Origin: a virus | Lineage: Duplodnaviria; Heunggongvirae; Uroviricota; Caudoviricetes | DNA length: 64,000 nt | Virus record (IMG/VR): IMGVR_UViG_3300029733_000185 | Reading direction: 5' to 3' (one strand) | In this document: positions 3,613 to 39,355 of the stretch, one piece after another | Layout: each line of letters begins with the position of its first letter | How positions within the stretch are numbered: position 1 is the stretch's first letter | Notes under the pieces: model-generated | Databases searched by the model: none | Seen by the model: only the letters and a program-made list of their open reading frames with translations | What the model was told of the DNA's origin: nothing | Position numbers and translations under genes: made by a program

Positions 3613-3996
3613 TTATTCTTGATTTGTTTGTTTTGTTTGTTGAGCATCAGAAAGTACATGTCTCATGCTGGCTTCGAGTTCGTCTTCGTCAATGAAGAGC
3701 TCTTCTCGTTTGTATTCTTTTGGCTGCGACTTAAAGTGCAACCATAGAAGCACATATTCTGTAACTGAGCACTTATGAATTCCAAAGAACCCAAAAAATG
3801 CAGCCGGGCCTCCGAAAAGGATAATCAAGACGATTCTCGCCTTGACAGAGATCGGCAAAAAGCCAAAAATCAATACGAAAATCGCAAAGAAAATAACGGC
3901 TTCGACTACGTTGCGCATGCTGCGACCCGAGCCGGTGATCATATTATCTTCGTAATTTTTAGGAATAAAATATCCGTCTTCCATATGTTCCATCAC
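3613..3996 (-). CDS. TcpE/Orf17-like two-TM membrane protein (VirB3 analogue)
   Basis: 127 aa, two hydrophobic helices, lies immediately upstream of VirB4-like gene as in Tn916/pCW3. Confidence 0.5.
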   Translation of the reverse strand: MMEHMEDGYFIPKNYEDNMITGSGRSMRNVVEAVIFFAIFVLIFGFLPISVKARIVLIILFGGPAAFFGFFGIHKCSVTEYVLLWLHFKSQPKEYKREELFIDEDELEASMRHVLSDAQQTKQTNQE

Positions 3997-4003: not shown

Positions 4004-4045
4004 AAAAAAAAATAAAAAGAGAACTATCAGATGATAGTTCTCCTT
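4004..4045 (-). terminator. intrinsic terminator-like hairpin
   Basis: perfect stem GAGAACTATCA/TGATAGTTCTC plus long U-run; lies between TGTTATAAT motif (4209-4222) and gene start 3996. Confidence 0.6.
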
Positions 4046-4290
4046 AAATTGCACATTTGCCTATCTGTGCATCTATTCAGTTCATATTTTCAAAAAAAAT
4101 CCAAGAAAAGATATAACTTACGCATATCCATCACTCCGATGGATTCTTTGAGTGTGATTCAATTTACGTAGGCATTCTTTTTAAGGACTTCTTTGATTTC
4201 ATCTTCTCAATAATTATAACATAGTCAAAAAAACAGGTCAATAACACCGAAGCATTATTGACCTGGTAATATCGGGAAATTCAGGAAATA

Positions 4291-7200
4291 TTATCCATTA
4301 CCCCAAGAAAGAATTTGCAGGGTTCCGTCCTCTCTGCCGATCCGGTAGCACTCTGAGTGTCCGCCTGGTGTGAAAATATCAATGCGTCCACGATTGTTGC
4401 CTGTGGGGGCAATATCAAAATCACTACCGCCTCTGTCTGCCACTGTATACACGGTTGTCTTATTGCCAATCTTGACGCTAATTTTTGTCCCTAAAGGTAG
4501 CCAGTTGCAAGCAATGTAATGCGGATCCGACATACCATTTCGTATCTTTTTACCACTGGCCGTCGTTCCGGTTCCGCCCGTTCCGTTGCAAATAGCACAA
4601 GCGCAATAGTGTGTTGCGGTAATCTTGTATGATGTTCCGGGAGAATAAGTGCGGCCTTTGTAAGTGTGTTTTACAGTTGTAGTAAAGAGTTTTGATGGGT
4701 CTTTGTACGAACCATTCACCAAATAGCCAAAATGCAAGTGAGGACCAGTTGAGTTACCTGTATTACCAGAGTACCCGATAAGTTGCCCCCTTGTAACCTT
4801 TTGGCCTTTTTTTGCAATTCTTTTGGATAGATGGCAATATTGTGTCGTTACATTTCCGCTTCGAATATAAATATGTTCACCGAAGCTTCTATATGCCTGA
4901 CCATTTGGCGCTTTCAAGCCGTTTCCTGCAGAACCGCCTGATGTTGTATATGTTGACTCAGCAACAACGCCATCAGCTGCAGCAAACACCTTTGTGCCCA
5001 CGGGAACGGCAAAATCAACGCCATTATGGTTTGCGTAACCGTAGAATCCGGTTGTAATCTTATGGCTCTTTGTAGGCCATCCAAGCACACCAGACGTGCT
5101 ATATGTATCAATGCTTGAGGACATGGACTCCAATTGCTCTTGATACGCAGTATTGTAAGCATCAACAAATGACTGATAGTCAGGTTGCGCATATCCGGTT
5201 ACAGAGTACAAATGATAATAGTGTGATAAAGTCTTATCGATAGGCGTTACGGTTCCGGTTTTGGCATCAATTCGCACATTTGTCACGGTAAAGTTTGATC
5301 CGCGAATATTTCTCGTTACGGACCAATCTTTGTAGTCTTTATAATCCGTCAGATTTGCTTTGAATGGCTCATCGTCATAATTATAAATAGCCACATTGAT
5401 TGTTTTGTTTGTCAAATTAACACCTGTTACAATGCCAACCTGATATGCCCAGTTGTGATTGCTATATTTGGCAAAGGCTGCGTCGTAATTTTTATTATTC
5501 TTTTGCCCGAACAGAGACGCCATTGCGATGTTTGGATAATTCTTAAGTTTTTCTCCAAGCTCATTTCCCTGTTCTCCAGCTGTCCAATAGAATGCCGCAT
5601 TCATAAACAGCATATCGCCTTGCTTGATGTGCGTACTACTGTTTTTGTTAAATGCGTTTTTCCAACCTTCTTTATACGGCTTTGATTCTTTAATCAATGC
5701 ATGGTAACTGTTTTTTACTTTGGCCTGGACTGCCTTATCTTTGGAGAGATTGTGTCTGTAATATTCATAATACTCCTCTCCGGCAATCATCTTGAAATTC
5801 TGATTTGTTTTTCCGTTCTTTGTGCTATACTGTCCAGGAAACAGATACTCTCTCAGCTTTACTTTAGAATTGGATAAAGCCTTTTGGTAGATGCACGTTA
5901 CAAATAAACCATCTTCGCCTTTGGCCAACTCGCCTTTTGTAAAGGTCTCTTCGTTGTATTTAATTACATTTCCGGCAGAGTCTTTTGTGGCATAAATGCT
6001 CTTTACGCTGCCATTCATCATGTTTTCGAACATATCGTCAGTGACGAATACGCCCTTTCGGTTAGATAGCGTCGGATTACCGACATAGCTTTTTGCCATA
6101 ACTGCTACATAACGTCGTGCAGTTGCTTCGGTCAGGTTTCCGGTAAGAAGTCCATCGCCTTCTAATTGACTCAATAAACTCTCGCCGCCACAAAGCTGTA
6201 TATAAACCGTGTGTGCTGGTGTCATTTTACAATACGGATCGTATTTCTCATCGCCTTTTTCATATTCGGGCGTGTTTGTTGCTGCTTCTATAATGGCATC
6301 AGAAATAAGAGTTTTTCCGGCCACTTCTTCCATTTCTTTATCAGTCAAGTCGAAGATCTTTTGAACAAAGCGAGAACTCGTGGTACCGTCAGCATTCTTC
6401 AGCTGCTCATTTTTATTATCGTCGTTTGCAAATACCGATACATTAACAATAATGCGTTTAATGGAGTGGTAATTCGTATCTCCCTCTGTCGTATCGCTCA
6501 AATATGCTTTGTCAATATTGGAAATCAAATTTCTGCCAACATTTATCTTGTCGCTTCCCACTTGGTAGGAATAATCATACATTTTATCTGCCACGTCCGA
6601 CTGATGCATGTAGTAATAAAGCGCAGATGTGTCTGTAAGACCCCAACTGGCCATATTGGCATCCACGCTTTCAAGATCGGATTCCATTTTTGCAAAATTA
6701 TCTGCAACTTGAGTCATATTGAATCTTGACGCCGTGCTATTCCCAACCTTGCTCACGACCCTGCCGACATCGATAAAAACAGATTTTCCACCTGTTTTTA
6801 TGTATCGCTTTACAGCATCTAATCCCTCAGTGAATACAGACACAACGCCATTTTCTTCAATCAGCTTCTCGCGGTATTTAACAAACGCGTTAATAATCTC
6901 TGAGTAGGTGTAGTCATATGTTGAAGATCCGCTTCCGGAATAAGCGTTTTTATAAACGACTTCTACACAGTTGTTGTCAGGATCTACATAACGAAATACT
7001 GCATCGTTTAAATTCGCTCCCGTATAGCCGTCCATGTCTACTCCAATACTAAACTCTCCACCGTCATCAATTTGATAGGCGTATCCGGATCCACCGAAGT
7101 GTTCTTCGTCATAATATGAATTACACAGAGTGTCAAAATTTGGAATAACCTTGCTATTGCCTAAATCTTTCTTCATGTGATTAACAGTGCTCCAGGCTGC

Positions 7201-10401: not shown

Positions 10402-10818
10402 TTACCCATCTTTGAACAAGCCACTGCTGAAACCGCCAATACTCGGATCTTTGGCATTTGAATAGGTATAGGAGTGATTTGGCACAGCCTGACCGACAAA
10501 CTGAATGATAGCTCCGGATAAGTTGAAAATTACAAATACAGCAATAATTGTTGTTATAAATTTCAAAGCACCGGATACGACCTTTTGATCTCGACTTACC
10601 ATCACTTGAATAAGTGAGAATCCTGTCGCAAGCACACATAGTGAATTAAACCAAGGAGAGATTTGGCCAATAATGTTTTTTACTGCAGCCATACCTGCGG
10701 CTTGTGTTACTGACGGTGCTTTGGCAGCGTATGCCATGCTCGGGAAACAAAGGAAAATTCCAAGGAACATCAGAGAAAAGATTGTTCCTAAGAGAATATT
10801 TTTCGATTTTTGTGTCAC
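10402..10818 (-). CDS. VirB2/TrbC-like T4SS pilin candidate (paralogue)
   Basis: 138 aa, same architecture (signal helix ending SMAYAA, second TM); tandem with previous gene. Confidence 0.5.
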   Translation of the reverse strand: MTQKSKNILLGTIFSLMFLGIFLCFPSMAYAAKAPSVTQAAGMAAVKNIIGQISPWFNSLCVLATGFSLIQVMVSRDQKVVSGALKFITTIIAVFVIFNLSGAIIQFVGQAVPNHSYTYSNAKDPSIGGFSSGLFKDG

Positions 10819-10838
10819 AAATTCATCACCCCTTTCTA

Positions 10839-10884
10839 AGAAAAAAAGCGGGAAGGCACATCTGATAACTGTACCACTCCCGCC
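10839..10884 (-). terminator. intrinsic terminator between SpoVG-like and pilin genes
   Basis: GCGGGAG..CTCCCGC stem plus U7. Confidence 0.55.
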
Positions 10885-10909
10885 GTGTTGTTCGATTTCT
10901 TAATTTTTA

Positions 10910-11302
10910 TTACGCAGCCTGCGGAATCGTAGAGATGCGCTCATCTGTATCTTTTTGACAAGCAATCTTGTACGCTTGCATAATACCCCGATTCAATTCT
11001 TTTGAAGCTTCAGGGCTATTTGGAAAAGCAACGCTTACAAATACGTCTTTACCATTACGCTTGCTCAGTCTCTTTGATGGATATACAATCGTAATTCTAC
11101 CAAATCGCTGAAGAATACAAATGTCATTGATTACAATGTGTCCATAAGTCACCTTCGCAAATGCCTTCAGCTCCTTCCCATTAAACAAACGAATGTCTAC
11201 CTGATACGGAATGCACATATTACCATGTGAGTCTTTCTTGAGAAGGTCGCTTACATTGATCATCATTTCCGGTGAACTGTATTCGTTTTTGTGTTCCGGC
11301 AT
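10910..11302 (-). CDS. SpoVG-family protein
   Basis: start at MPEHK with AAGGAGGA RBS; core VDIRLFNGKELKAFAKVTYGHIVINDICILQ...IVYPSKRLSKRNGKDVFVSVAFP parallels SpoVG consensus. Confidence 0.6.
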   Translation of the reverse strand: MPEHKNEYSSPEMMINVSDLLKKDSHGNMCIPYQVDIRLFNGKELKAFAKVTYGHIVINDICILQRFGRITIVYPSKRLSKRNGKDVFVSVAFPNSPEASKELNRGIMQAYKIACQKDTDERISTIPQAA

Positions 11303-11365
11303 CGAAATCCTCCTTTCATCGTATTGGATTGTTTTAAGTGTCTCGTGTATTTTTGTTCTGTGAAC

Positions 11366-11425
11366 ACAAGACACAAAAAATAAAAAGAAGGAGAACGCAT
11401 TTCGTGCCAGTTATGGCAGCTGCAT
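11366..11425 (-). promoter_or_regulatory. structured leader (terminator-like hairpin + U-tract, then second 10-bp hairpin) upstream of SpoVG-like gene
   Basis: GGAGAAUGCAGCUGCCAUAACUGGCACGAAAUGCGUUCUCC followed by UUCUUUUUAUUUUUU, then GUGUCUUGUG..CACGAGACAC. Confidence 0.5.
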
Positions 11426-11440
11426 TCTCCTTGTTAAAAT

Positions 11441-11452
11441 AATTATAACACT
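11441..11452 (-). promoter_or_regulatory. extended -10 promoter (TGTTATAAT)
   Basis: TRTGnTATAAT motif on minus strand. Confidence 0.5.
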
Positions 11453-11482
11453 TTTGTGAATTTCGGACAAATTTTATTAGTG

Positions 11483-11516
11483 AACAGAAAAAAAGGCGAC
11501 AGATTTCTCTGTCACC
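11483..11516 (-). terminator. intrinsic terminator after vWA gene
   Basis: GGTGACAG..CTGTCGCC stem flanked by T/A runs (bidirectional). Confidence 0.6.
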
Positions 11517-11523
11517 TTTTTTG

Positions 11524-13734
11524 TTATAAAAGTTTTTTGATTTTCGCCAGCAAAATTCTCGCTATTTCTGTCGGCAGTTTTTGTAGATCTCGGCCATCTA
11601 CAAGTTCTTTGCCATAAATGGCTTGCAGATTATAAAAATCGTCGCCAATAGCGATAGGAATAATTGCAATATGTGATTTTTTACATATTTTATTCAAATA
11701 TTCCATATCGTGGACCATTTGTGTATGACCGTAACCGGTGCCATTCGGACGCCCATCTGACAATACGAATAAAAACTTTTGTGTTTCTGGCCGCTTAACT
11801 AGCTTAGAAATGCCAAAACGAAGTCCATAGCCATCATGATTACAAGCATTATGTGCTTTCATAGACACAAGTTTTGAAGCATTGATGTTGTTCTTGATGT
11901 CATCCATCTTCAGATACTCGTTAATCATAACACTTCCGTACTCACAGTGACCGTAAACTCCAAATGGAATTTTAAGCTCTCTGCAAAACGCTTCCAGACA
12001 CATTGCTGCTAGTCTTGCTGCTTTCTCACGATCTCCGTCCATACTGCCAGATTCATCAACCATGATTTCGACAGCACACAGCGGACGTTTTGTCGGTGCA
12101 GTGATATCCATAAATACTCTCTCTGAACCGGACGCATACGCATTGACATCCAACATAATGCCCTCATCTTGTTCATAGTAGATATTCCCTTTTCGACGTT
12201 CCTTGAGAACTTTAAGGACTTTTTTGGCCAACGTTTTCGCAATTGCCTTCTCTTTTGATGTGAAAATTGCATTATAAGCATTTACATCAGTCTCAAAATC
12301 TCTGCGAATACTGTGTGACAGATTTGCTACTCTGCCATCTTTGATAAATCTACCGAATTCCTGGTTTTCATATTGTCGATTTAGATCTTTCAGGTTTTGT
12401 TCGGCAAAGATCTTATTCAAAACTGATTCAGAAGATTTGTTTGCTTCGTTTTCGGCTTTTGCAAAAATATCCTGCAGTGCTTTGCTGAAAGCAGGATCAA
12501 TAGGCGCTTGTTTGCTTTTATCTGTTTCTTCATTCTGTTGGCTCTGGCCGTCTGCCTTCTGATTTTTATTTTCAGAACTTTTTTGTTGCTTGTTTTGGGA
12601 ACCAACGGCATTTTTGCCATTAGTATCATTTTCACCAGATTCATCATTTGGAGAGCCAGCAGAAGCGTTTTCAGCGCCGTTTTCTTTGTTTTGCGAGTCC
12701 GTGCTAGACTGTTCAACTTTACTGCCTTCCGAGTCATTCTGAGAGCCTTCAGAGCCACTCTGATTGTCCTTGCTTGAATTGTCAGAAGAAGATTGGCTTG
12801 ACTGAGCACTCTGTCTCTGATTGGCTTGACCAACCATTGTAGAACGCGATTGTCCTTGTCCATCCTCTTGCTCATTCATCTCACTCTGGTCATCAGAGAT
12901 TGCATTGTCATCTGCAAATTGAGACAGCATATTGAGTGCCTGTTGGATTCTATCAGCTTGTTCAAAGTACTCACTAAAATACTTCCACAAGATCTGCATA
13001 ATTTTTCCAACAACGTGAAGACGATCCTCATAATTTGGCATCGACTCCACAGCAAACAAAGGCTGCGTATCCTTTAATTCCGGATACAACTTCAGACTTT
13101 CATCCGCAAAGCAACCTCTTGCCTGGCAAAGAAGCAAATTAAGCAATGCATTAATATCTTTGCTTTGAGGCGTTTCTGCTGAAATATGTTGCCGTAGACG
13201 TTCTGTCAAAGCATCAACATAGCAAGCAAATCCAGGGTACTTTTGTACAGCAAGGTACTCAATTACCGGGTCCTCAACAATGTTCGCAATTTTAAAAAAT
13301 AGCTTATCAAATAACTCTTTCGAAATTCCGTAAGCCTTCTCTACTTCATCGGTTTGCTGAAAGCCGTCAAAATATTCACCATATGGGAATACTTTTTTCT
13401 CCTGCAACTCTGCAGCTCTGGCAAAATTCGTATGCAGTCCATGACCAAAAACCTCGTGAGTCAGCTTACCAAGCGCAAGTTTTTTTCGCTCCACAAAGTT
13501 CAGACCTTTATCCAGCACAGAGTCCAAATTGATGTAGCACTCTTTGTCGGAAATCCAGGCAATCTTTCCGTCAGGGGCAAAATCTGTACGAATCGGTACA
13601 GACTTGAAACTATAATAGTTTAAACTGGAATTGGCCAGCCCTTGTAGGACTGACCGAAAACCAGATGCCTCAACTATTTCCTTGAGAGAAGTGTTTTCTT
13701 TCACAAACTCTCGAAGTTGTTTTTTATCCATCAT
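11524..13734 (-). CDS. vWA-domain protein with N-terminal HExxH zincin-like motif and Q/S/N-rich linker
   Basis: 736 aa; HEVFGHGLH near N-terminus; about 200-aa low-complexity acidic/polar region; C-terminal MIDAS DESGSMDGD; 6 nt downstream of the AAA ATPase gene. Confidence 0.7.
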   Translation of the reverse strand: MMDKKQLREFVKENTSLKEIVEASGFRSVLQGLANSSLNYYSFKSVPIRTDFAPDGKIAWISDKECYINLDSVLDKGLNFVERKKLALGKLTHEVFGHGLHTNFARAAELQEKKVFPYGEYFDGFQQTDEVEKAYGISKELFDKLFFKIANIVEDPVIEYLAVQKYPGFACYVDALTERLRQHISAETPQSKDINALLNLLLCQARGCFADESLKLYPELKDTQPLFAVESMPNYEDRLHVVGKIMQILWKYFSEYFEQADRIQQALNMLSQFADDNAISDDQSEMNEQEDGQGQSRSTMVGQANQRQSAQSSQSSSDNSSKDNQSGSEGSQNDSEGSKVEQSSTDSQNKENGAENASAGSPNDESGENDTNGKNAVGSQNKQQKSSENKNQKADGQSQQNEETDKSKQAPIDPAFSKALQDIFAKAENEANKSSESVLNKIFAEQNLKDLNRQYENQEFGRFIKDGRVANLSHSIRRDFETDVNAYNAIFTSKEKAIAKTLAKKVLKVLKERRKGNIYYEQDEGIMLDVNAYASGSERVFMDITAPTKRPLCAVEIMVDESGSMDGDREKAARLAAMCLEAFCRELKIPFGVYGHCEYGSVMINEYLKMDDIKNNINASKLVSMKAHNACNHDGYGLRFGISKLVKRPETQKFLFVLSDGRPNGTGYGHTQMVHDMEYLNKICKKSHIAIIPIAIGDDFYNLQAIYGKELVDGRDLQKLPTEIARILLAKIKKLL

Positions 13735-15282: not shown

Positions 15283-15305
15283 AATAAATTTCCTCCTTAA
15301 TAAAA

Positions 15306-15345
15306 AAAGAGCCATCAGCAAAGAACTGACGACTCTTTTTATTTT
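15306..15345 (-). promoter_or_regulatory. terminator-like hairpin + U7 immediately upstream of AAA-ATPase RBS
   Basis: imperfect stem AGAGUCGUCAG..CUGAUGGCUCU then UUUUUUU then AAGGAGG. Confidence 0.5.
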
Positions 15346-15407
15346 TTAATGTTTATTTTTTTATAACTATAACTTCTGTGCAAATGCGCAGAATATAATT
15401 AACACCA

Positions 15408-15421
15408 TAATTATAACACAA
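15408..15421 (-). promoter_or_regulatory. extended -10 promoter (TGTGTTATAATT)
   Basis: motif on minus strand between SSB terminator and ATPase leader hairpin. Confidence 0.5.
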
Positions 15422-16364: not shown

Positions 16365-16485
16365 TTTATCTCCTACAATAATATGAAAAGACGGACACCA
16401 CAAGGATGACCGTCTTAAAAGCAATTTATTTTTTGTTATAACTTATAACGTCATAATTATAACACATTTTTGTAAACGAGACAAA

Positions 16486-20850: not shown

Positions 20851-21498
20851 TTATTGAACACCATCAGCAATCTTGCACATTATATTCTGATCTATATGAG
20901 CGCTAACTGTACCGGTAATAATGTAGATATAATCATTTTTATACTCTACAATTCGCATAGTTTGTGGTTGCGTTGTGCTTTCTAAAACAATACGTGACCC
21001 TGTGTTCTCAATTTCTTTATATCCTTCTAAATCAATAGAAACATTTACTCTTTTACGGCATTTTTCAACCTGGAACCATTCATCGTTATCATAAACATAA
21101 TGTCTGCTGATCATTGACGACGTGTTTGTTTTATGGTCGCATACAAATCCATTGGGCGCATATTCTATCTGAATTTCGCCAACACTGTCGCCTTTTGTAT
21201 CTGAACTAAAAATTAGAATGTTTGACAAGGTGCTGCGCGTAATAAGATTTTTGCCTTCAGGAACGAACGCGATACAAGAAACAAACGCTCCTACAATTAG
21301 GATGATAGCAATTGCAATAGCAACGATGCGTTTTGTAACAAAATGTTTTTTTACACTATTTGGCTTTGTTTGGTTGAAAATAGCCTTATGCAAATGTTCA
21401 TATGTTCCATATGGAATTGGCTTTTCTGATTGTTTTTGGTGCTTAACTTCATCATATTGTGCGATGATTGCAGACTTCCGAACATCTTCATCTTTCAA
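20851..21498 (-). CDS. membrane-anchored anti-sigma-factor candidate
   Basis: 215 aa; cytoplasmic N-terminus, single TM (IVAIAIAIILIVGAFVSCIAFV), extracytoplasmic domain; start overlaps stop of sigma gene by 4 nt. Confidence 0.5.
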   Translation of the reverse strand: MKDEDVRKSAIIAQYDEVKHQKQSEKPIPYGTYEHLHKAIFNQTKPNSVKKHFVTKRIVAIAIAIILIVGAFVSCIAFVPEGKNLITRSTLSNILIFSSDTKGDSVGEIQIEYAPNGFVCDHKTNTSSMISRHYVYDNDEWFQVEKCRKRVNVSIDLEGYKEIENTGSRIVLESTTQPQTMRIVEYKNDYIYIITGTVSAHIDQNIMCKIADGVQ

Positions 21499-22010
21499 TG
21501 CTTTAACTCCTCTCTCATATTCTTTTTTGCAATTTGTAATCTTTTGCGTACATAACTACTCTTCAGTCCATACATCGCTCCGATTTCTTTACTTGTATAA
21601 CCGTAAATGTAAGACAGATATACGAAAACGCGATCTAATTCCGGTAAGCGTTTGATAATATCACTTAGTTCGCCACCATTCTCGTTTGGCATTTCCGCAA
21701 TCTCTGCACATACATCCAGTGAGATATTTTGGCTACTTTGTCTACTTACTCGATGATAGTATGTAATTGCGAACCCGTTTGCAACAGTCGCTACATAATT
21801 TTTGGTTGATTCCGACTCAACAGATTCCAGGGCGTCAATATGTTTGATAAGATACAGAAATATATCTTGCAGACAATCCTCGACATCTTCCCTGCCATTA
21901 ATTCGTCGCGTAACCACCGAGTAGATCAGACGCATGTATTTGTTGTATAAAGCGTCGAACAATTGTTCGTTTGTGCTCTCAACTTTGTTTTTGTCCACTA
22001 TATCACCCAA
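21495..22010 (-). CDS. sigma-70 family (ECF-like) RNA polymerase sigma factor
   Basis: 171 aa; region-2-like DIFLYLIKH and region-4 HTH YGYTSKEIGAMYGLKSSYVRKRL. Confidence 0.7.
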   Translation of the reverse strand: MGDIVDKNKVESTNEQLFDALYNKYMRLIYSVVTRRINGREDVEDCLQDIFLYLIKHIDALESVESESTKNYVATVANGFAITYYHRVSRQSSQNISLDVCAEIAEMPNENGGELSDIIKRLPELDRVFVYLSYIYGYTSKEIGAMYGLKSSYVRKRLQIAKKNMREELKH

Positions 22011-24507: not shown

Positions 24508-24663
24508 AAAAATTTCCTCCTAAAAAAAATTAAGTTTATACTTTAATGACAAAAAAGCAGCCACCCCATCAAAGAGATAACTGCAAGAAATAAGTATAAC
24601 ACTATAATTATATCACGATTTTACCAAAAGAAAAAACGGCGCAACAATGCGCGCCGTTTTAAG

Positions 24664-29641: not shown

Positions 29642-29717
29642 TGGTGGAAGCAGAGGGACTCGAACCCTCGACCTTCTGCTTGCAAAGCAGATGCTCTCCC
29701 AGTTGAGCTATGCCCCC
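29642..29717 (-). tRNA. tRNA-Ala(TGC)
   Basis: cloverleaf on minus strand; G3:U70 pair; anticodon loop CTTTGCAAG; CCA encoded. Confidence 0.8.
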
Positions 29718-29737
29718 AAATGAGAATCTTACCGAAA

Positions 29738-29813
29738 TGGTGGGAATAGTAGGTCTCGAACCTACGACCTCCTGCTTGTAAGGCAGGCGCTCTCCCAGCT
29801 GAGCTATATTCCC
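29738..29813 (-). tRNA. tRNA-Val(TAC)
   Basis: anticodon loop CCTTACAAG; T-loop TTCGAGA. Confidence 0.75.
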
Positions 29814-29816
29814 AAA

Positions 29817-29892
29817 TGGTGCCGGATCTCGGACTTGAACCGAACACCTCTGCGTTACGAAGGCAGCGCTCTACCAGATGAGCTAATCCAGC
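29817..29892 (-). tRNA. tRNA-Thr(CGT)
   Basis: anticodon loop TTCGTAA; C31-C39 mismatch. Confidence 0.6.
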
Positions 29893-29900
29893 GAAATGAG

Positions 29901-29976
29901 TGGTGCCACAGGCTGGAGTCGAACCAGCGACGCTCGGTTCTTCAGACCGACGCTCTACCTGCTGAGCTACCGTGGC
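29901..29976 (-). tRNA. tRNA-Phe(GAA)
   Basis: anticodon loop CTGAAGA. Confidence 0.8.
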
Positions 29977-29979
29977 ATA

Positions 29980-30055
29980 TGGTGCGAAATGCAGGACTTG
30001 AACCTACAACCTACGGCTTATCGAGCCGTTGCTCTGCCAATTGAGCTAATTTCGC
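29980..30055 (-). tRNA. tRNA-Ile(GAT)
   Basis: anticodon loop CTCGATAA. Confidence 0.75.
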
Positions 30056-30056
30056 A

Positions 30057-30132
30057 TGGTGATCGCAGTGGGATTCGAACCCACGATACAGGTTAGAAAG
30101 ACCTGCGGCTTAGACCGCTTGCCGATGCGACC
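30057..30132 (-). tRNA. tRNA-Glu(TTC)
   Basis: Glu-type D-loop AAGCGGTCTAAG; anticodon loop CTTTCTA with unusual U37. Confidence 0.55.
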
Positions 30133-30137
30133 GAAAA

Positions 30138-30214
30138 TGGTGAACGCACTGAGATTCGAACTCAGACTCTGCGGTTAGAGAGACCGCCATGTTAGCCTAT
30201 TACACTATGCGTCC
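30138..30214 (-). tRNA. tRNA-Glu(CTC)-like, isotype uncertain
   Basis: D-stem GTGT/ACAT; anticodon loop CTCTCTA (CTC with U37; alternative register would give TCT). Confidence 0.45.
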
Positions 30215-30217
30215 AAA

Positions 30218-30293
30218 TGGAGCAGGTGATCAGATTCGAACTGATGAATAATGGGTTTGCAGCCCACACCGTTAGCCTCTTCGGCACACCCGC
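30218..30293 (-). tRNA. tRNA-Cys(GCA)
   Basis: anticodon loop CTGCAAA; discriminator U73. Confidence 0.75.
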
Positions 30294-30300
30294 AAAAATA

Positions 30301-30376
30301 TGGCTCCCACGGCCAGACTTGAACTGACAACTTCCTGATTAACAGTCAGGCGCTCTACCGATTGAACTACGTGGGA
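30301..30376 (-). tRNA. tRNA-Asn(GTT)
   Basis: anticodon loop CTGTTAA; discriminator G73. Confidence 0.75.
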
Positions 30377-30380
30377 ATGT

Positions 30381-30457
30381 TGGCAGGGGCGGAGCGACTT
30401 GAACACTCGTGCCATGGTTTTGGAGACCAGGCGATTTCCTGTTATCTTTACGCCCCT
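30381..30457 (-). tRNA. tRNA-Trp(CCA), atypical D-arm
   Basis: acceptor AGGGGCG/CGCCCCT, anticodon loop CTCCAAA as in Bacillus tRNA-Trp; D-arm has an extra nucleotide. Confidence 0.55.
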
Positions 30458-30464
30458 GTATGTT

Positions 30465-30539
30465 TGGGTGGAATCCCGGGAGTCGAACCCAGATTACTTG
30501 TACCACAAACAAGCGTGCTACCGTTACACCAGAAACCAC
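30465..30539 (-). tRNA. tRNA-His(GTG)-like, possibly degenerate
   Basis: G-1:C73 feature and anticodon loop TTGTGGT, but two U-U mismatches in acceptor stem. Confidence 0.45.
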
Positions 30540-30617
30540 AAATGAGAAAGCGTATGTTTTGATTTTGCAACTATAATATAGAGCTGGGCTAAACATACAA
30601 AACAACTTCTACCCTTA

Positions 30618-30712
30618 TGGTGGTCGGAGATGAGGGAATCGAACCCACTCGAATGCCTAAGCACACCAGTTTTACAGACTGGGGTATCTACCTTAATACT
30701 TTAACCTCCGAT
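30618..30712 (-). tRNA. tRNA-Tyr(GTA)-like, long variable arm, irregular acceptor
   Basis: anticodon loop CTGTAAA, discriminator A73, long variable arm; A1-C72 mismatch. Confidence 0.45.
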
Positions 30713-30771
30713 TTATTAAATTGTCGCAGAATACCACGCCTGAACAACGGTTCAGACGTGGATAAATACAA

Positions 30772-32115
30772 CTATGCCGCGTTGTAAATTGTTTTTGCGT
30801 ATTTAAATGGTTGTAATTGCTTAACGCTTACAATTTTTTTGAATTCGTTATTTTTGATAGACACGTAAGTACCGCGGTTTTGTGTGCCAACCACTTCAAA
30901 TGTTCTGTTACGCCAAAGCACCGTATCATGTGGTTGGTACGGATATCGTTGTCTTCTGATAGATACTCTACCTTTGGAAATCTTTTGCTGTCTGTATGGA
31001 TGCAAGTTCTCACCATTCAGGTTTTTGTTACGAGTTGTTCTACCGCTAAATAATTCTTTACCGGTAGCCTTTTGACCCGTCCTTGCATCCACATATTTGG
31101 CATCGTGAAACTTTGCAAGACAACGATTATTTTTACGTTTCTCTTGCCAGAACACCGGTTCACACCGGTGCTTTGGCTGTTTGTCGCCGACACAATACGC
31201 ATCGTTGTAATGCGTTTTGTCTAACTGCAAATCTATCCGTTTGGATTTTGTCAAATAGCCAAAAGTCTCTACAACCGGAATCGTGTATTCATCACGCAGC
31301 TGTGTGATCAGCATTCGTCTGACCGTAGACATAAATGTCTCCGGTTTGAAAGACTTTTGCTTTGGTTGCAGACCATACAAAATCTGCCCCTTTTGATGAT
31401 TACGTGACGTATGACACTTGCTACACAGCGTTAATGTATTTGCAGGCGTATTTGAATGATCGTTTTTCCAATATCCGATATGATGCATGCGAAGCACTGC
31501 ACCATCTCGGAAAGCATTTTTACCACAGATCTGGCAAGTGTATCCGTCTCTGTAGAAAGTGTGCTCACGCAAATTTCGGAAGTCGTACATCTCGCCCTTT
31601 TGATATCCCTCACCGGAGATATCCGGGGTCTTTAATGCTTGAATATCGAAATTTGCGGTCTCTACATAGATCTTTGTAATCGGCAGAAGGCGCATCAACT
31701 TTCGAATGACCTTTTTGTGGCTGTCCAGCTTATGCTGAATGCTGGGTGCCAACCATTGGTCCGGTCTTCTGCGATTATCAAATCTTGGCTTGCGATGTCT
31801 CAAACGATTGCGACGCTTGCGACGATACGCTCGCCGGTCGTCTAATCGTTTGGACTGGTTTTCTAAAAGTTTTAATTCACCGGAAAACAACTCTTTGTTA
31901 TCAGTACAAGCAGAAATGCCAATATGCTGATAACCAGCATCGATTTTCAGATTAATGTCTTGTGTATTGTTTTCCGTCTCATAAAGCCATTGGATTGTAA
32001 ACGGATTGCCACTTACGACTTGAGCTTTATTGCTCTTCAACAGTTTGCGTACATAGCCACATCTTTCTGTTGGCATCAGTGGCTGGCCGTTTACATCTAA
32101 GACATACACCATCAT
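30772..32115 (-). CDS. iscB: IscB RNA-guided nuclease (PLMP, split RuvC, bridge helix, HNH, TI domains)
   Basis: 447 aa; N-terminus MVYVLDVNGQPLMPTERCGYVRKLLK (PLMP domain); RuvC-I LKIDAGYQHIGIS; Arg-rich bridge helix RRAYRRKRRNRLRHRK; HNH CQICG..HHI..N..CSKCH; RuvC-III HYNDAYCVG. Confidence 0.9.
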   Translation of the reverse strand: MMVYVLDVNGQPLMPTERCGYVRKLLKSNKAQVVSGNPFTIQWLYETENNTQDINLKIDAGYQHIGISACTDNKELFSGELKLLENQSKRLDDRRAYRRKRRNRLRHRKPRFDNRRRPDQWLAPSIQHKLDSHKKVIRKLMRLLPITKIYVETANFDIQALKTPDISGEGYQKGEMYDFRNLREHTFYRDGYTCQICGKNAFRDGAVLRMHHIGYWKNDHSNTPANTLTLCSKCHTSRNHQKGQILYGLQPKQKSFKPETFMSTVRRMLITQLRDEYTIPVVETFGYLTKSKRIDLQLDKTHYNDAYCVGDKQPKHRCEPVFWQEKRKNNRCLAKFHDAKYVDARTGQKATGKELFSGRTTRNKNLNGENLHPYRQQKISKGRVSIRRQRYPYQPHDTVLWRNRTFEVVGTQNRGTYVSIKNNEFKKIVSVKQLQPFKYAKTIYNAA

Positions 32116-32474
32116 AAGATATGGCTCCTTTCAATAAATTTGGTCTGGAATGACCAGCGCACAGACGGAGCCAAAGGCCCGGTCTGTGGTAAACCCACAT
32201 CGTCAATGTTATGAATTGTTTGTTGTGTACTGCACGTCTCCGACCCCATCAGAGATTTTTAACAACACACCGTAGTGCAAGGGGCTTGTGGAGCACCCCT
32301 TGGTACCTATTTGGCAGCCGAAGCTGCCATTAAAACATAACGTAGCACTCGAAGTGCTTAGACTAATCAACTATGGGCTTGTGATTTCTTACAAGCCCCA
32401 ACTGACTGTTTCACGGTTAGTCTGGGGTAATTGACAGTCAGGACCGCTACCGTTACGGAATATCGACGCATATA
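32116..32474 (-). ncRNA. omega-RNA of IscB (scaffold plus 5' guide region)
   Basis: about 360 nt non-coding region immediately upstream of iscB on the same strand; several stable stem-loops (GGGCTTGTGATTTCTTACAAGCCC, AAGGGGCTTGTGGAGCACCCCTT, CTGACTGT..ACAGTCAG). Confidence 0.65.
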
Positions 32475-32564
32475 CTGGTGCTGATAGTGGGAGTCGAACC
32501 CACACGGTGTTGCCACCATCGGGGCTTAAACCCGATGCGTGCTGCCAATTTCGCCATATCAGCA
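32475..32564 (-). tRNA. tRNA-Leu(TAA)
   Basis: 90 nt incl. CCA; anticodon loop TTTAAGC, long variable arm. Confidence 0.75.
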
Positions 32565-32629
32565 CATATAAATAGCCACACCTGATAGCCATACACACCA
32601 TTCAGTGTGGCTTTTTGCATTTATCGTTA

Positions 32630-33124
32630 TTATTTGGTAATCCGATCCGCAATTGTACTGGCCACAAAGGAATTTGGCTTGGTTTCAACATCGTAGCCGC
32701 AAGAGCGGATCCAACTTACCAACCCTGGGATAAGATCCTTTGTTTTCCCGTTAACCGAATTGCCCGCATCAATATGAATTGACAATGGATATTCTGCAAA
32801 CATCTCTCTATATATTGCATTACCCTCAAACATGTCTACCAGTTCCCCAGCCAAAGTTAACCTGGCAGCAGTTTCAGTTTGCAATTTGAGTTTTACATTT
32901 TGGATTAAGTCCTCACGAGAAACTTCGTAAAAGAAGATACCTCCATGTCCATGGGCAACAACCGCAATAACAGATACCATTTTTGTATTATTGAAATTTT
33001 GACTATCTGTGCCGACGATGATACTGATTTGATCTGTTTGTGCTTTATTACGCCGGTAATAAGCCAAGATAGCATCTGGAATTTCTGTAAGCTGTATTGA
33101 ATTCCCTGAACCGGTACAAAACAT
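32630..33124 (-). CDS. hypothetical protein embedded in tRNA array (possible RNase H-like fold)
   Basis: 164 aa, AAGGAGGG RBS; no secure motif; weak resemblance to YkuK/DUF458-like proteins. Confidence 0.45.
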   Translation of the reverse strand: MFCTGSGNSIQLTEIPDAILAYYRRNKAQTDQISIIVGTDSQNFNNTKMVSVIAVVAHGHGGIFFYEVSREDLIQNVKLKLQTETAARLTLAGELVDMFEGNAIYREMFAEYPLSIHIDAGNSVNGKTKDLIPGLVSWIRSCGYDVETKPNSFVASTIADRITK

Positions 33125-33148
33125 TGGACATACCCTCCTTGTAATTTT

Positions 33149-33236
33149 TGGCGGCGATGGAAGGATTCGAACCTTCGAGCCTTTTACAGCTAACGCGTTA
33201 GCAGTGCGCCGGTTTCAACCACTCACCCACATCGCC
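33149..33236 (-). tRNA. tRNA-Ser(GCT)
   Basis: 88 nt, long variable arm, anticodon loop CTGCTAA. Confidence 0.65.
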
Positions 33237-33240
33237 AAAA

Positions 33241-33316
33241 TGGTGCGCCGTTTGGGGTTCGAACCCAAGACCTCCAGATTAAGAGTCTGTTGCTCTACCG
33301 ACTGAGCTAACGGCGC
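33241..33316 (-). tRNA. tRNA-Lys(CTT)
   Basis: anticodon loop CTCTTAA. Confidence 0.7.
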
Positions 33317-33320
33317 ATAA

Positions 33321-33397
33321 TGGTCTGGACAACAGGATTCGAACCTGCGGTCTCCGGATCCCAAATCCGGCGCTTTACCAAACTAAGCTACGTCCAG
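33321..33397 (-). tRNA. tRNA-Pro(TGG)
   Basis: anticodon loop TTTGGGA. Confidence 0.75.
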
Positions 33398-33484
33398 ATA
33401 ACCAAATACATGCAGACAGATCAGATTTGCCGTGAAATATGTGCTCGACCACAGCAAGAATTCGATCTGATTTTGTCTGCATAT

Positions 33485-33559
33485 TGGCACCGCCTGCAGG
33501 ATTTGAACCCGCATTACAAGGTCCGTAGCCCTGTGTTCTGTCCTTTGAACTAAAGCGGT
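33485..33559 (-). tRNA. tRNA-Arg(ACG)
   Basis: anticodon loop CTACGGA. Confidence 0.75.
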
Positions 33560-33564
33560 GTATA

Positions 33565-33641
33565 TGGTGCCCCTACGAAGATTTGAACTCCGAATTGGGG
33601 ATTAGAAGTCCCCTGTTTTATCCAGATTAGACTATGGGGGC
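33565..33641 (-). tRNA. tRNA-Arg(TCT)
   Basis: anticodon loop CTTCTAA. Confidence 0.75.
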
Positions 33642-33644
33642 ATA

Positions 33645-33719
33645 TGGAAGCGATGCCGGGGATCGAACCCAGAATGCAAGAGTCAAAGTCTCGTGTTTTG
33701 CCGATTAGACTACATCGCC
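33645..33719 (-). tRNA. tRNA-Gln(TTG)
   Basis: anticodon loop CTTTGAC. Confidence 0.7.
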
Positions 33720-33838
33720 ATATAAGAGCAGGTTTTTCATTGACTGGGACACACACCAAAAATCTGGTGGAGGTGCGCAACGCTTCTCGTACTGCTATCT
33801 CGGCAATACCGAACGAGGCGAGTCCGGAACTCGCAAAT

Positions 33839-33924
33839 TGGTACTGGATAAGGGACTTGAACCCTTACGATCTAAATCAACGGATTTTGAATCCGTCGCG
33901 TCTGCCAAATTCCGCCAATCCAGT
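33839..33924 (-). tRNA. tRNA-Leu(CAA)
   Basis: 86 nt, long variable arm, anticodon loop TTCAAAA. Confidence 0.75.
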
Positions 33925-33939
33925 ATTTACATGAAAAAG

Positions 33940-34026
33940 TGGCGGGGCGTCAGGGACTCGAACCCTGAAGGCTGTTACACCCAACGGTTTTCAAGACCGC
34001 ACGACTACCAATTATCACAACGCCCC
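33940..34026 (-). tRNA. tRNA-Ser(TGA)
   Basis: 87 nt, long variable arm, anticodon loop CTTGAAA. Confidence 0.6.
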
Positions 34027-34120
34027 ACATATGCGGCAGACCGATATCGATCTGTTATAAGAACATTGGGAGAGGTGAATCACCCCTCTTATGCAGGAAC
34101 TCCTAAGTTACCTTGTTACA

Positions 34121-34197
34121 TGGCGACTCCGACCAGGCTCGAACTGGCAACCTCCAGCGTGACAGGCTGGCGCTCTACTCTTTTGAACTACGGAGCC
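34121..34197 (-). tRNA. tRNA-Asp(GTC)
   Basis: anticodon loop CTGTCAC. Confidence 0.8.
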
Positions 34198-34200
34198 ATA

Positions 34201-34286
34201 TGGTGCTCGATAAGAGATTCGAACTCTTACATCTTTCGATACCAGATCCTAAATCTGGCGCGTCTGCCAAATTCCGCCAATCGAGC
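34201..34286 (-). tRNA. tRNA-Leu(TAG)
   Basis: 86 nt, long variable arm, anticodon loop TTTAGGA. Confidence 0.75.
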
Positions 34287-34299
34287 AAATGAATAATAA

Positions 34300-34375
34300 T
34301 GGTGCGCCGTCAGAGAATTGAACTCTGGACCTTTAGATTATGAGTCTACTGCTCTAACCACTAAGCTAACGGCAC
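34300..34375 (-). tRNA. tRNA-Met or tRNA-Ile2 (CAT), elongator type
   Basis: anticodon loop CTCATAA; no initiator features. Confidence 0.65.
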
Positions 34376-34388
34376 AAACAACACAAAA

Positions 34389-34464: not shown

Positions 34465-34477
34465 ATATTGGTTACAT

Positions 34478-34658: not shown

Positions 34659-34663
34659 ATAAG

Positions 34664-39351: not shown

Positions 39352-39355
39352 GTTT

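What the first reader, a model, noticed from the sequence alone, without database searches (positions are those of the whole stretch)
11303..11456. Double-hairpin leader upstream of the SpoVG-like gene
A TGTTATAAT promoter at 11441-11452 is followed by a strong terminator-like hairpin with nested stem (11381-11421) and a 15-nt U-rich tract. A second 10-bp-stem hairpin (GUGUCUUGUG..CACGAGACAC, 11337-11373) comes next, then the AAGGAGGA RBS. The layout resembles a riboswitch or attenuator expression platform with alternative structures. SpoVG-family proteins are nucleic-acid-binding regulators, so autoregulation is possible.
Basis: seen in the sequence. Interest (0 to 1): 0.5.

Follow-up and report, generated by a model that had tools for sequence, protein, structure and literature searches.

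The report
Leader terminator hairpin before conjugation genes
A strong promoter is followed almost at once by a terminator-like RNA hairpin at the head of a conjugative element's DNA-transfer genes; it is a recurring, fairly ordinary gene-control device, not a riboswitch.

Summary
The promoter, both hairpins, the U-tract and the ribosome-binding site are all present on the minus strand, with small coordinate corrections. Hairpin 1 (11432-11388) plus a U-tract (11387-11375) looks like an intrinsic terminator. It starts about 3 nt after the predicted transcript start, so no upstream RNA can form a competing antiterminator or an aptamer. Rfam finds nothing.

The window is a conjugative element, probably from a Firmicute. 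The SpoVG-like gene heads its type IV secretion gene block. The same layout recurs across the window: the promoter word TGTTATAATTAT has 12 matches against 0.75 expected, and 7 of 11 promoter leaders hold a terminator-like hairpin against 0.3 in shuffles. Most gene junctions also carry terminators.

In nine diverged lineages of this rare SpoVG-like gene, a hairpin starts 1-6 nt after the predicted start. About six keep a U-tail. Hairpin 2 occurs only in the window's lineage.

Best reading: a promoter-proximal leader terminator that also caps the 5' end of read-through mRNA. It resembles the leader terminators of Gram-positive conjugation operons but lacks their antiterminator. Autoregulation by SpoVG is untested. 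The finding is a new member of a known kind, of modest interest.

The parts
11488..11522 (-). T0, the intrinsic terminator of the upstream VWA-domain gene (stop codon 11526-11524). Sequence: A6-GGUGACAGAG-AAAU-CUGUCGCC-U7. It looks bidirectional.
   Evidence: -20.7 kcal/mol, z = -7.3; it aligns only to the terminator part of the CsrC model. One search also flags it.
11442..11470 (-). SigmaA-type promoter: -35 TTGTCC, 17-nt spacer, extended -10 TGtTATAAT. It belongs to an element-wide promoter family, TGTTATAATTAT. The predicted start is A11435, give or take 1 nt.
   Evidence: 10 of 12 plus TG; 12 matches with up to 1 mismatch against 0.75 expected; 7 are exact copies, all on the minus strand and all intergenic. 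The start site is inferred, not mapped.
11388..11432 (-). Hairpin 1. It has an outer 12-bp stem (one G-U pair), an internal loop, an inner 5-bp stem and a UAAC loop. It begins at about +4 of the predicted transcript.
   Evidence: -23 to -24 kcal/mol, z about -6; a positional counterpart exists in all 9 lineages.
11375..11387 (-). U-rich tail (C-U5-A-U6) immediately 3' of hairpin 1. This is the expected release point, giving an RNA of roughly 55-60 nt.
   Evidence: tail score 3.17, comparable to the 3' terminators in the window. Termination itself is inferred.
11338..11374 (-). Hairpin 2: an 11-bp stem and a 15-nt loop, with no U-tail. It is specific to the window's lineage. In the read-through mRNA it brings the U-tract next to the ribosome-binding site.
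   Evidence: -16.6 kcal/mol, z = -3.7; within-lineage changes fall mostly in the loop, with one G-U to A-U change and one change that breaks a pair; absent in other lineages; mean P(unpaired) of the ribosome-binding site is 0.20.
11300..11316 (-). Ribosome-binding site AAAGGAGGA (11316-11308) and ATG start codon (11302-11300) of the SpoVG-like gene.
10910..11302 (-). SpoVG-like gene (130 aa). It is the first gene of the type IV secretion block; pilin-like, VirB6-like, M23 hydrolase and VirB4-like genes follow.
   Evidence: Pfam SpoVG. (fold). (conserved synteny).
10841..10884 (-). Intrinsic terminator directly after the SpoVG-like gene. The ribosome-binding site of the next gene follows with no promoter between them.
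   Evidence: -19.6 kcal/mol with a U7 tail. L019 and L021 have the same arrangement.

Best explanation
Hairpin 1 with its U-tract is a promoter-proximal intrinsic terminator. It is placed at the very 5' end of the transcript made from a strong, consensus-like sigmaA promoter. That promoter heads the type IV secretion (mating-channel) gene block of a conjugative element, probably from a Firmicute.

It is not a ligand-sensing switch, because nothing is transcribed before it that could compete with it. It is one copy of a design used throughout the element: consensus promoter, then leader terminator, then ribosome-binding site. Further terminators sit at most gene junctions.

The proposed working has four parts, all inferred:
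1. A large share of RNA polymerases starting at 11435 release a 55-60 nt RNA at 11375-11380. This keeps the costly transfer genes low.
2. The same hairpin, together with T0, stops transcription arriving from the upstream AAA/VWA genes.
3. Transcripts that read through keep hairpin 1 within 3 nt of their 5' end, where it should protect them from 5'-end-dependent decay.
4. Read-through is either a constitutive leak or is raised by an unidentified element-encoded antitermination function that would also carry polymerase across the downstream terminators.

Hairpin 2 is a lineage-specific accessory. Its only predicted effect is to juxtapose the U-tract and the ribosome-binding site and partly mask the latter.
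For: Anatomy of this leader:
- Searches show the promoter, the stable hairpin (z = -6) and the 13-nt U-rich tail. Searches show that only about 3 nt of RNA precede hairpin 1.

A recurring design in the window:
- The promoter word has 12 matches against 0.75 expected.
- 7 of 11 leaders behind such promoters hold a hairpin plus U-tail, against a mean of 0.32 (maximum 1) in shuffled leaders.
- Terminators directly precede ribosome-binding sites with no promoter at about 10.85, 9.85, 22.0 and 3.36 kb.

Context:
- The window carries VirB4-like, VirB6-like, pilin-like, M23 hydrolase, topoisomerase III and Toprim/DUF3991 genes.
- Among the lineages with enough flanking DNA, the downstream pilin-like/VirB6-like/M23 block is kept in six of seven (not L037) and the upstream AAA_5-VWA pair in six of seven (not L035/L036).

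Conservation across lineages:
- In 9 lineages with 31-49% protein identity, the leader sequence is not alignable. In every one, a hairpin still starts at +1 to +6 of the predicted transcript, with z from -3.1 to -6.7. About six have a usable U-tail.
- Relatives also have a promoter, terminator and ribosome-binding site in that order before their SSB genes.
- Close pairs differ in the loop or by pair-preserving changes. L021 and L022 differ only in the loop. L035 and L036 differ by U-G to U-A plus one loop change.

Literature:
- Terminator-rich Gram-positive conjugation operons with leader terminators are established. A terminator just upstream of the first gene is predicted in 339 of 423 plasmids (PMC13401043; also PMC8191782, PMC8955417, PMC11658703).
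- Protection of mRNA by 5'-terminal stem-loops is established knowledge (Emory 1992 and Hambraeus 2002, as listed in PMC3997798).
Against: - No transcript ends are available. The start site and the termination are predictions.
- Three of the nine lineages (L030, L029, L035) have a weak U-tail or none. Termination is therefore not the universally conserved property; the 5'-terminal hairpin is.
- At 45 nt, hairpin 1 is longer and more branched than a typical terminator.
- No antitermination factor was recognised in the 64-kb window. There is no NusG paralogue and no ConAn1/PF17362.
- A strong promoter followed by an efficient terminator with no relief mechanism would be wasteful. Some part of the model, either the leak or a factor, is therefore still missing.
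Confidence: 0.6

Rival explanations
1. Pure 5'-terminal mRNA stabiliser. The hairpin exists to cap the 5' end of the operon mRNA against RNase J1/RppH-type decay. Termination at the U-tract is negligible or incidental.
For: - The one property kept in all 9 lineages is a hairpin starting 0-5 nt from the predicted 5' end. This is the known requirement for such stabilisers (references in PMC3997798).
- Three lineages lack a good U-tail.
- Four of the five lineages with no separate GC-rich terminator after the upstream gene have good U-tails (L013 scores low only because its U5 run is counted inside the stem). Three of the five lineages that do have one have weak tails. This hints that the U-tail mainly serves to stop upstream transcription.
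Against: - The window's own tail (11 U in 13 nt, directly after a -23 kcal/mol hairpin) is as good as those of its 3' terminators.
- About 6 of 9 U-tails is far above what composition predicts.
- The other six leader hairpins in the window start at +17 to +157. They cannot be 5' caps, yet they have U-tails.
Confidence: 0.2
2. Autoregulation by the SpoVG-like protein. The first gene product binds its own leader, either RNA (hairpin 1 or hairpin 2) or DNA, and sets termination, stability or translation.
For: - SpoVG proteins bind RNA and DNA. Borrelia SpoVG binds the 5' end of its own mRNA with the highest affinity (PMC11086051, PMC4959528).
- The gene and a structured leader stay together in 9 lineages.
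- Hairpin 2 plus the U-tract-to-ribosome-binding-site pairing gives a plausible translational target in the window.
Against: - No shared sequence motif exists among the nine leaders.
- Hairpin 2 is lineage-specific.
- Masking of the ribosome-binding site is predicted only in the window and L037.
- The same leader layout precedes unrelated genes.
- Nothing here tests binding.
Confidence: 0.1
3. Riboswitch or classic alternative-structure attenuator. A ligand, tRNA, leader peptide or RNA-binding protein would choose between a terminator and an antiterminator fold.
For: A terminator-like hairpin sits in a 133-nt leader, and a second hairpin follows.
Against: - No Rfam family matches.
- Only about 3 nt precede the terminator, and +1..+36 folds only into the terminator's own inner stem.
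- Hairpin 2 is transcribed after the decision point and is not conserved.
- No consistent leader peptide exists. In the window the only candidate is MQLP, with an AUG 1-2 nt after the SD-like AAGGAG.
Confidence: 0.03
4. The 55-60 nt terminated RNA is itself the product, a small regulatory RNA. The operon would be read from it only by leak.
For: A strong promoter followed by a terminator gives a discrete short RNA. Weak, sub-threshold resemblances to sRNA and ctRNA models come from the terminators.
Against: - The RNA would be nothing but a terminator hairpin.
- Loop and arm sequences are not conserved between lineages, and in L013 the RNA would be only about 30 nt.
- No other promoter exists for the SpoVG-like gene between 11375 and 11302.
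Confidence: 0.04
5. A DNA-level element: an operator palindrome for a repressor, or an oriT inverted repeat overlapping the start site.
For: The inverted repeats lie at +4..+48 and +62..+98. In Inc18 plasmids oriT overlaps the tra promoter (own knowledge).
Against: - The arm spacing varies from 4 to more than 20 nt between lineages.
- G-U pairs, which are mismatches in DNA, occur in the stems.
- No conserved nic-like sequence lies beside the repeat.
- The first gene is not a relaxase.
Confidence: 0.03

Closest known systems
Leader terminators and attenuators preceding Gram-positive conjugation operons (cATT of pLS20 and predicted relatives; PMC13401043)
   Same: An intrinsic terminator lies between the main promoter and the first gene of a long, terminator-rich conjugation gene block. 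In those plasmids the terminator also sits 0-26 nt from the ribosome-binding site.
   Different: The pLS20 attenuator needs about 200 nt of upstream leader (SL-2 and ext-SL-3) that zips into an antiterminator. Here the terminator starts at about +4, so no antiterminator can form. The first gene is SpoVG-like, not conAn1. There are no experimental data for this element.
conAn bipartite processive antitermination (ConAn1 protein plus conAn2 RNA; PMC8191782) and canT of Tn916 (PMC11658703)
   Same: The conjugation genes are punctuated by many intrinsic terminators. A small protein gene of unknown role is the first gene after the leader.
   Different: - The SpoVG-like family does not match Pfam PF17362, even at E up to 5.
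- The spacer after the gene is 91 nt and is itself a terminator. It is not a 260-600 nt RNA element.
- No antitermination activity is shown.
5'-terminal stabilising stem-loops (ompA, papA, aprE leader; references in PMC3997798)
   Same: The hairpin begins 0-5 nt from the predicted 5' end in all nine lineages.
   Different: Those elements are not followed by U-tracts and do not terminate. Here the start site is predicted, not mapped, and no stability data exist.
Lambda PR'-tR' / Q arrangement (own knowledge)
   Same: A strong constitutive promoter is followed closely by a terminator. A short RNA is made unless polymerase is modified at the promoter.
   Different: - No Q homologue was found.
- The only faint Q-like hit is region 4 of an ECF-like sigma factor, at E = 0.0036 and below the cutoff.
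- No pause-inducing element is demonstrated.

Membership tests
Intrinsic (Rho-independent) terminator | Stable GC-containing stem-loop | tested here: met
   -23.8 kcal/mol, z = -6.1, 17 bp in two stacked stems.
Intrinsic (Rho-independent) terminator | U-rich tract immediately 3' of the stem | tested here: met
   C-U5-A-U6 at 11387-11375, tail score 3.17.
Intrinsic (Rho-independent) terminator | RNA 3' ends generated at the U-tract | not testable with these tools
   No transcript data are available. This needs Term-seq or in vitro transcription.
Riboswitch (any Rfam class) | Conserved ligand-binding aptamer upstream of the expression platform | tested here: not met
   no family reaches gathering score; only about 3 nt of RNA precede the terminator.
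Riboswitch / alternative-structure attenuator | Antiterminator fold that is mutually exclusive with the terminator and transcribed before it | tested here: not met
   the nascent +1..+36 RNA forms only the terminator's inner stem. Hairpin 2 lies downstream of the release point.
Zipper-type attenuator (cATT, pLS20 family) | A long imperfect stem-loop, preceded by a weak stem-loop whose 3' strand is complementary to the terminator's 5' strand | tested here: not met
   no leader RNA lies upstream of hairpin 1. Description of the family from PMC13401043.
conAn processive antitermination system | First gene encodes a ConAn1 protein (Pfam pXO2-34, PF17362) | tested here: not met
   all 9 family members match SpoVG only, and none matches PF17362 at E up to 5; the fold is SpoVG.
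conAn processive antitermination system | A 260-600 nt conAn2 RNA region downstream of the first gene | tested here: not met
   a 91-nt spacer (10909-10819) holds a terminator and a ribosome-binding site.
conAn processive antitermination system | Multiple intrinsic terminators inside the conjugation operon | tested here: met
   terminators at most junctions, in the window and in L013, L019 and L021.
5'-terminal stabilising stem-loop | Hairpin within about 5 nt of the mRNA 5' end | tested here: inconclusive
   met in 9 of 9 lineages, but only relative to a predicted start site (7 nt after the -10).
5'-terminal stabilising stem-loop | Lengthened mRNA half-life that depends on the hairpin | not testable with these tools
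   Needs rifampicin chase experiments with hairpin mutants.
Counter-transcript (ctRNA) driven attenuation (pT181 / pIP501 / pCF10 type) | Antisense RNA gene overlapping the leader | tested here: not met
   ctRNA_pT181 scores 22.5 bits against a gathering score of 56 (E = 2.7); the only plus-strand promoter-like site (11413-11440) points away from the leader.
SpoVG family (downstream gene) | Pfam PF04026 above gathering score, and the SpoVG fold | tested here: met
   34.4 bits against a cutoff of 29.6, with 9 of 9 relatives matching. PDB SpoVG at E = 3e-5; pLDDT 82.8 and TM 0.72 to 2ia9.

The most novel reading that the evidence does not exclude
The SpoVG-like protein and the 5' leader could form a previously unrecognised control module for type IV secretion operons in a family of gut Firmicute conjugative elements. 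The module would work by antitermination or autoregulation. The first gene product would bind the nascent leader or the elongating polymerase. It would then license read-through of hairpin 1 (a positive feedback) and of the five or more terminators inside the operon. Functionally this would parallel ConAn1/conAn2, but it would be built from an unrelated RNA/DNA-binding fold.
Probability: 0.1. Interest if true: 0.7.

Novelty: new member of a known kind. Interest (0 to 1): 0.3.

Why it matters
If the reading is right, this uncharacterised family of large gut conjugative elements keeps its transfer machinery silent by terminating transcription rather than, or in addition to, repressing initiation. 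Strong constitutive-looking promoters are each followed by a terminator, and further terminators lie between the genes. That is the logic recently shown for pLS20, pCF10 and Tn916, but here none of their known antitermination parts is present. The element must therefore either live on leaky read-through or carry an unknown antiterminator. The conserved SpoVG-like first gene is the obvious candidate to test.

The finding also warns against reading any promoter-proximal hairpin as a riboswitch. The comparative data show which part is conserved (a 5'-terminal hairpin) and which part is lineage-specific (hairpin 2).

Tried and rejected
- **Rfam.** The whole window at gathering score and 10800-11700 at E up to 10 gave only sub-threshold hits, all driven by terminators.
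- **Repeats of the hairpin arms elsewhere in the window.** None beyond chance.
- **Close relatives for covariation.** Seventeen sequences gave 12 haplotypes, but they are nearly invariant. The few changes are uninformative or mixed: one G-U to A-U, one A-U to G-U, one G-C break and one terminal A-U to U-U.
- **Formal covariation across the nine lineages.** Not attempted, because the leaders cannot be aligned as homologous columns. Only positional and structural conservation can be claimed.
- **Annotated relatives.**
  - Megablast and tblastn against plasmids and phages found no close relative.
  - Two scans of GTDB genomes found nothing.
  - Of six IMG/VR scans, two returned only the one near-identical 148-kb contig and four found nothing.
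  - The host therefore stays unidentified.
- **Start site inside the hairpin's 5' arm**, which would make promoter transcripts immune to the terminator. Rejected: the predicted start lies 0-5 nt upstream of the stem in all lineages.
- **Anti-SD/SD switch**, with the 3' arm of hairpin 1 or the U-tract masking the ribosome-binding site. Predicted only in the window and L037, so it is not conserved.
- **SD-like AAGGAG in the 5' arm as a special signal.** AAGG...CCUU stems are also common among ordinary 3' terminators of this element, so the resemblance is not specific.
- **Leader peptide.** No consistent small ORF across lineages.
- **conAn, zipper-type, ctRNA and Q-type membership.** The defining features were tested and not met (see the membership table).
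- **AlphaFold database fold search.** Unavailable.

Full report
**1. What is there**

All genes in the window run on the minus strand. Reading that strand, the region is laid out in this order:
- The stop codon of a 736-aa VWA-domain gene, at 11526-11524.
- That gene's own terminator, T0 (11522-11488; -20.7 kcal/mol, z = -7.3).
- A promoter: TTGTCC, 17 nt, TGtTATAAT (11470-11442; 10 of 12 plus TG).
- A predicted start at A11435.
- Hairpin 1 (11432-11388): a 12-bp outer stem with one G-U pair, an internal loop, a 5-bp inner stem and a UAAC loop. Energy is -23.8 kcal/mol, z = -6.1.
- A C-U5-A-U6 tail (11387-11375).
- Hairpin 2 (11374-11338): an 11-bp stem and a 15-nt loop, at -16.6 kcal/mol, z = -3.7.
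- A 21-nt spacer, then AAAGGAGGA (11316-11308) and the ATG at 11302.

The downstream 130-aa protein is a genuine but divergent SpoVG-family member. It matches Pfam at 34.4 bits against a cutoff of 29.6. All nine relatives match. PDB SpoVG matches at E = 3e-5. The predicted model has pLDDT 82.8 and matches SpoVG crystal structures with TM 0.72.

**2. Context**

The window is not a typical chromosomal stretch and not obviously a phage. Downstream of the SpoVG-like gene lie:
- two small pilin-like membrane proteins, with a weak TrbC/VirB2 match;
- a 602-aa polytopic VirB6-like protein;
- a 1231-aa M23 peptidase;
- a VirB4-type ATPase with TraG P-loop/AAA_10 domains.

Upstream lie AAA_5 and VWA proteins, an SSB, a Toprim/DUF3991 protein, a RecD-like helicase, topoisomerase III, and an ECF-like sigma factor. 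This is the gene content of a Gram-positive-type conjugative element.

Several features point to a Firmicute host, but this is an inference:
- a G+C content of 40.6%;
- AGGAGG ribosome-binding sites;
- TRTGnTATAAT promoters.

A near-identical 148-kb contig sits in IMG/VR. An identical protein variant occurs on contigs of up to 1.1 Mb.

**3. The layout is a house style of the element, not a SpoVG-specific device**

- The 12-mer TGTTATAATTAT has 12 matches with up to 1 mismatch, against 0.75 expected. Seven are exact, all on the minus strand and all in intergenic DNA.
- I took 11 such promoters that are followed by a recognisable ribosome-binding site and start codon. Seven of their leaders contain a single hairpin of -9 kcal/mol or better that is directly followed by at least 6 U in 8 nt.
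- These seven leader hairpins lie near 63.6, 57.8, 45.6, 24.55, 15.3, 11.4 and 4.0 kb.
- Dinucleotide-shuffled leaders gave a mean of 0.32 and never more than 1.
- Terminators also sit directly in front of ribosome-binding sites, with no promoter between, at about 10.85, 9.85, 22.0 and 3.36 kb.
- Relatives show the same habit. A promoter, terminator and ribosome-binding site precede the SSB genes of L013 and L021. Terminators lie at most junctions of their secretion gene blocks.

**4. No room for a riboswitch or a classical attenuator**

- Rfam finds nothing in the leader at gathering score. At E up to 10 there are only terminator-driven fragments of sRNA models.
- The predicted transcript has about 3 nt before hairpin 1.
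- Folding +1..+36 gives only the inner stem of hairpin 1.
- Hairpin 2 is made after the polymerase has passed the release point, so it cannot take part in the termination decision.

**5. Comparative evidence**

The SpoVG-like subfamily is rare. Only eight clusters score 1e-10 or better among 1.84 billion representative proteins.

Close relatives have about 98% protein identity. Their leaders are almost invariant, so they carry no useful covariation.

I recovered upstream DNA for eight further lineages with 31-49% protein identity. Where the contigs are long enough to judge, the gene block is largely kept. The downstream pilin-like, VirB6-like and M23 genes are present in six of seven lineages (not L037). 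The upstream AAA_5-VWA pair is also present in six of seven (not L035/L036).

The leaders cannot be aligned with each other, yet they share three features:
- Each has a good sigmaA-type promoter, although the promoter assignment in L037 is doubtful.
- In all nine lineages a hairpin starts at +1 to +6 of the predicted transcript. Energies run from -6.4 to -23.2 kcal/mol and z-scores from -3.1 to -6.7.
- A usable U-tail follows in the window, L033, L037, L021/L022 and L019. In L013 the U5 run partly pairs with an A-tract. The tail is weak or absent in L030, L029 and L035.

Hairpin 2 has no counterpart in any other lineage.

Two close pairs give small but consistent hints of RNA-level constraint:
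- L021 and L022 differ only in the loop.
- L035 and L036 differ by U-G to U-A plus one loop base.

There is also a weak pattern in the U-tails:
- Lineages without a separate GC-rich terminator after the upstream gene (L021/L022, L033, L037, L013) nearly all keep a good tail. L013 is the partial exception, because its U5 run pairs with the A-tract.
- Three of the five lineages with a separate terminator have let the tail decay.

**6. Interpretation**

The conserved core is a hairpin at the extreme 5' end of the operon transcript. In most lineages, and very clearly in the window, it also has the form of an intrinsic terminator. I therefore read hairpin 1 as a promoter-proximal leader terminator with three roles:
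- It aborts part of the transcripts after 55-60 nt.
- It helps insulate the secretion genes from upstream transcription.
- It stays on the read-through mRNA as a protective 5' cap.

Each of these steps is inferred from anatomy and precedent, not shown. The precedents are these:
- Gram-positive conjugation operons are known to be full of terminators. Many carry a terminator just before the first gene (339 of 423 plasmids predicted; PMC13401043).
- Read-through in those systems is supplied by conAn (PMC8191782) or canT (PMC11658703).
- Insulation by terminators is shown for Tn916 (PMC11658703).
- 5'-terminal stem-loops stabilise mRNA in E. coli and B. subtilis (references in PMC3997798).

How read-through happens here is open. 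I found no NusG paralogue, no ConAn1 (PF17362), and no conAn2-sized RNA region. The choice is therefore between constitutive leak and an unrecognised factor.

**7. Hairpin 2**

Hairpin 2 is real but lineage-specific. Within the lineage, the loop varies (indels and substitutions). The stem shows one strengthening change and one disruptive change.

In the predicted fold of the read-through leader, hairpin 2 clamps the U-tract next to the ribosome-binding site, whose mean unpaired probability falls to 0.20. Most other lineages show 0.5-0.9.

A modest translational damping role is possible but speculative. Hairpin 2 has no U-tail and is not repeated elsewhere in the window.

**8. SpoVG autoregulation**

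This is plausible by precedent only. SpoVG proteins bind RNA and DNA (PMC4959528). Borrelia SpoVG prefers the 5' end of its own mRNA in vitro (PMC11086051).

Two observations weigh against it:
- The nine leaders share no sequence motif.
- The same layout stands before unrelated genes.

The most novel reading still allowed is that the SpoVG-like first gene is the missing antitermination or licensing factor of this element family. I give that about 10%.

**9. Verdict**

It is an attenuator-like leader terminator, not a riboswitch, not a double-hairpin switch, and not specific to SpoVG. The finding is a new member of a known kind. It is of modest interest, mainly as an entry point to how an uncharacterised, terminator-rich conjugative element family controls its transfer genes.

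Noticed in passing
window 29645-35538 (minus strand): There are 27 tRNA genes in two dense arrays on what otherwise looks like a conjugative element. That is an unusually large tRNA complement for such an element.
   Followed up: no
window 30772-32435 (minus strand): A HEARO RNA (32189-32435; 129 bits against a gathering score of 83) lies directly upstream of a 447-aa RRXRR+HNH ORF (30772-32115). This is an IscB-type RNA-guided nuclease locus embedded between the tRNA arrays.
   Followed up: no
window 4210-4221, 11439-11450, 15407-15418, 16453-16464, 24604-24615, 36805-36816, 45725-45736, 46701-46712, 57807-57818 (minus strand): An element-wide promoter family, TGTTATAATTAT, has 12 matches with up to 1 mismatch against 0.75 expected. 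The two bases after the -10 (TA) are also kept in the relatives' promoters.
   Followed up: partly
window ~63616-63660, 57758-57785, 45645-45672, 24556-24584, 15305-15340, 4010-4050 (minus strand): Six further leader hairpins with U-tails lie between a consensus promoter and the first ribosome-binding site. Several have AAGGAG...CUCCUU-type stems.
   Followed up: partly
window 24590-24615; L013 ~4908-4925; L033 ~3893-3905; SSB leaders L013 785-860 and L021 184-250: Tandem -10-like elements (TATAATTATAAT, TGATATAATTATAGTGTTATACTTAT, and up to four TATAAT copies) lie in the initially transcribed region. They could cause sigma-dependent promoter-proximal pausing, or they could simply reflect AT-richness.
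   Followed up: no
window 21495-22010 (minus strand): The element encodes an ECF-like sigma factor with regions 2 and 4. There is also a faint, sub-threshold hit to Phage_antitermQ (E = 0.0036, 17.6 bits against a cutoff of 26) over region 4.
   Followed up: no
window 47562-57713 (minus strand): A single 3383-aa ORF sits behind a consensus promoter and a leader terminator. It was not characterised.
   Followed up: no
window 11413-11440 (plus strand): A promoter-like site (ATGGCA, 16 nt, TAAAAT, with TG; 9 of 12) lies inside hairpin 1 on the opposite strand and points toward the bidirectional-looking T0. It could give an antisense RNA of about 80 nt over the promoter region, but it is probably chance.
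   Followed up: no
L030 1249-1692: The called start of the closest diverged homologue (P0003, 147 aa) is probably wrong. The N-terminal 24 residues are translated from the leader hairpin region. A strong ribosome-binding site (GGAAAGGAGG) precedes an internal ATG at 1321 that aligns with the other family members.
   Followed up: partly
window 45800-47240: Two consensus promoters (-10 ends at 47139 and 46704) are not followed by a clear ORF of 40 aa or more with a ribosome-binding site within 400 nt. A plus-strand copy of the promoter word lies at 45951-45962. The region may hold small genes, RNAs or oppositely oriented genes.
   Followed up: no
window 37206-45623 and 61857-63412: There is accessory cargo unusual for a transfer region:
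- S26 signal peptidase;
- an SPFH/NfeD pair;
- staphylococcal-nuclease homologue;
- A24 prepilin peptidase plus DUF4320 (Tad-like);
- YidC-like and SecB-like proteins;
- a SocA/Panacea antitoxin domain.
   Followed up: no
L001/L012 (IMGVR_UViG_3300029365_000474): A near-identical 148-kb contig is filed as viral in IMG/VR although this part encodes a type IV secretion system. The same protein variant also occurs on contigs of up to 1.1 Mb. The element may therefore be integrated, or part of a very large replicon.
   Followed up: no
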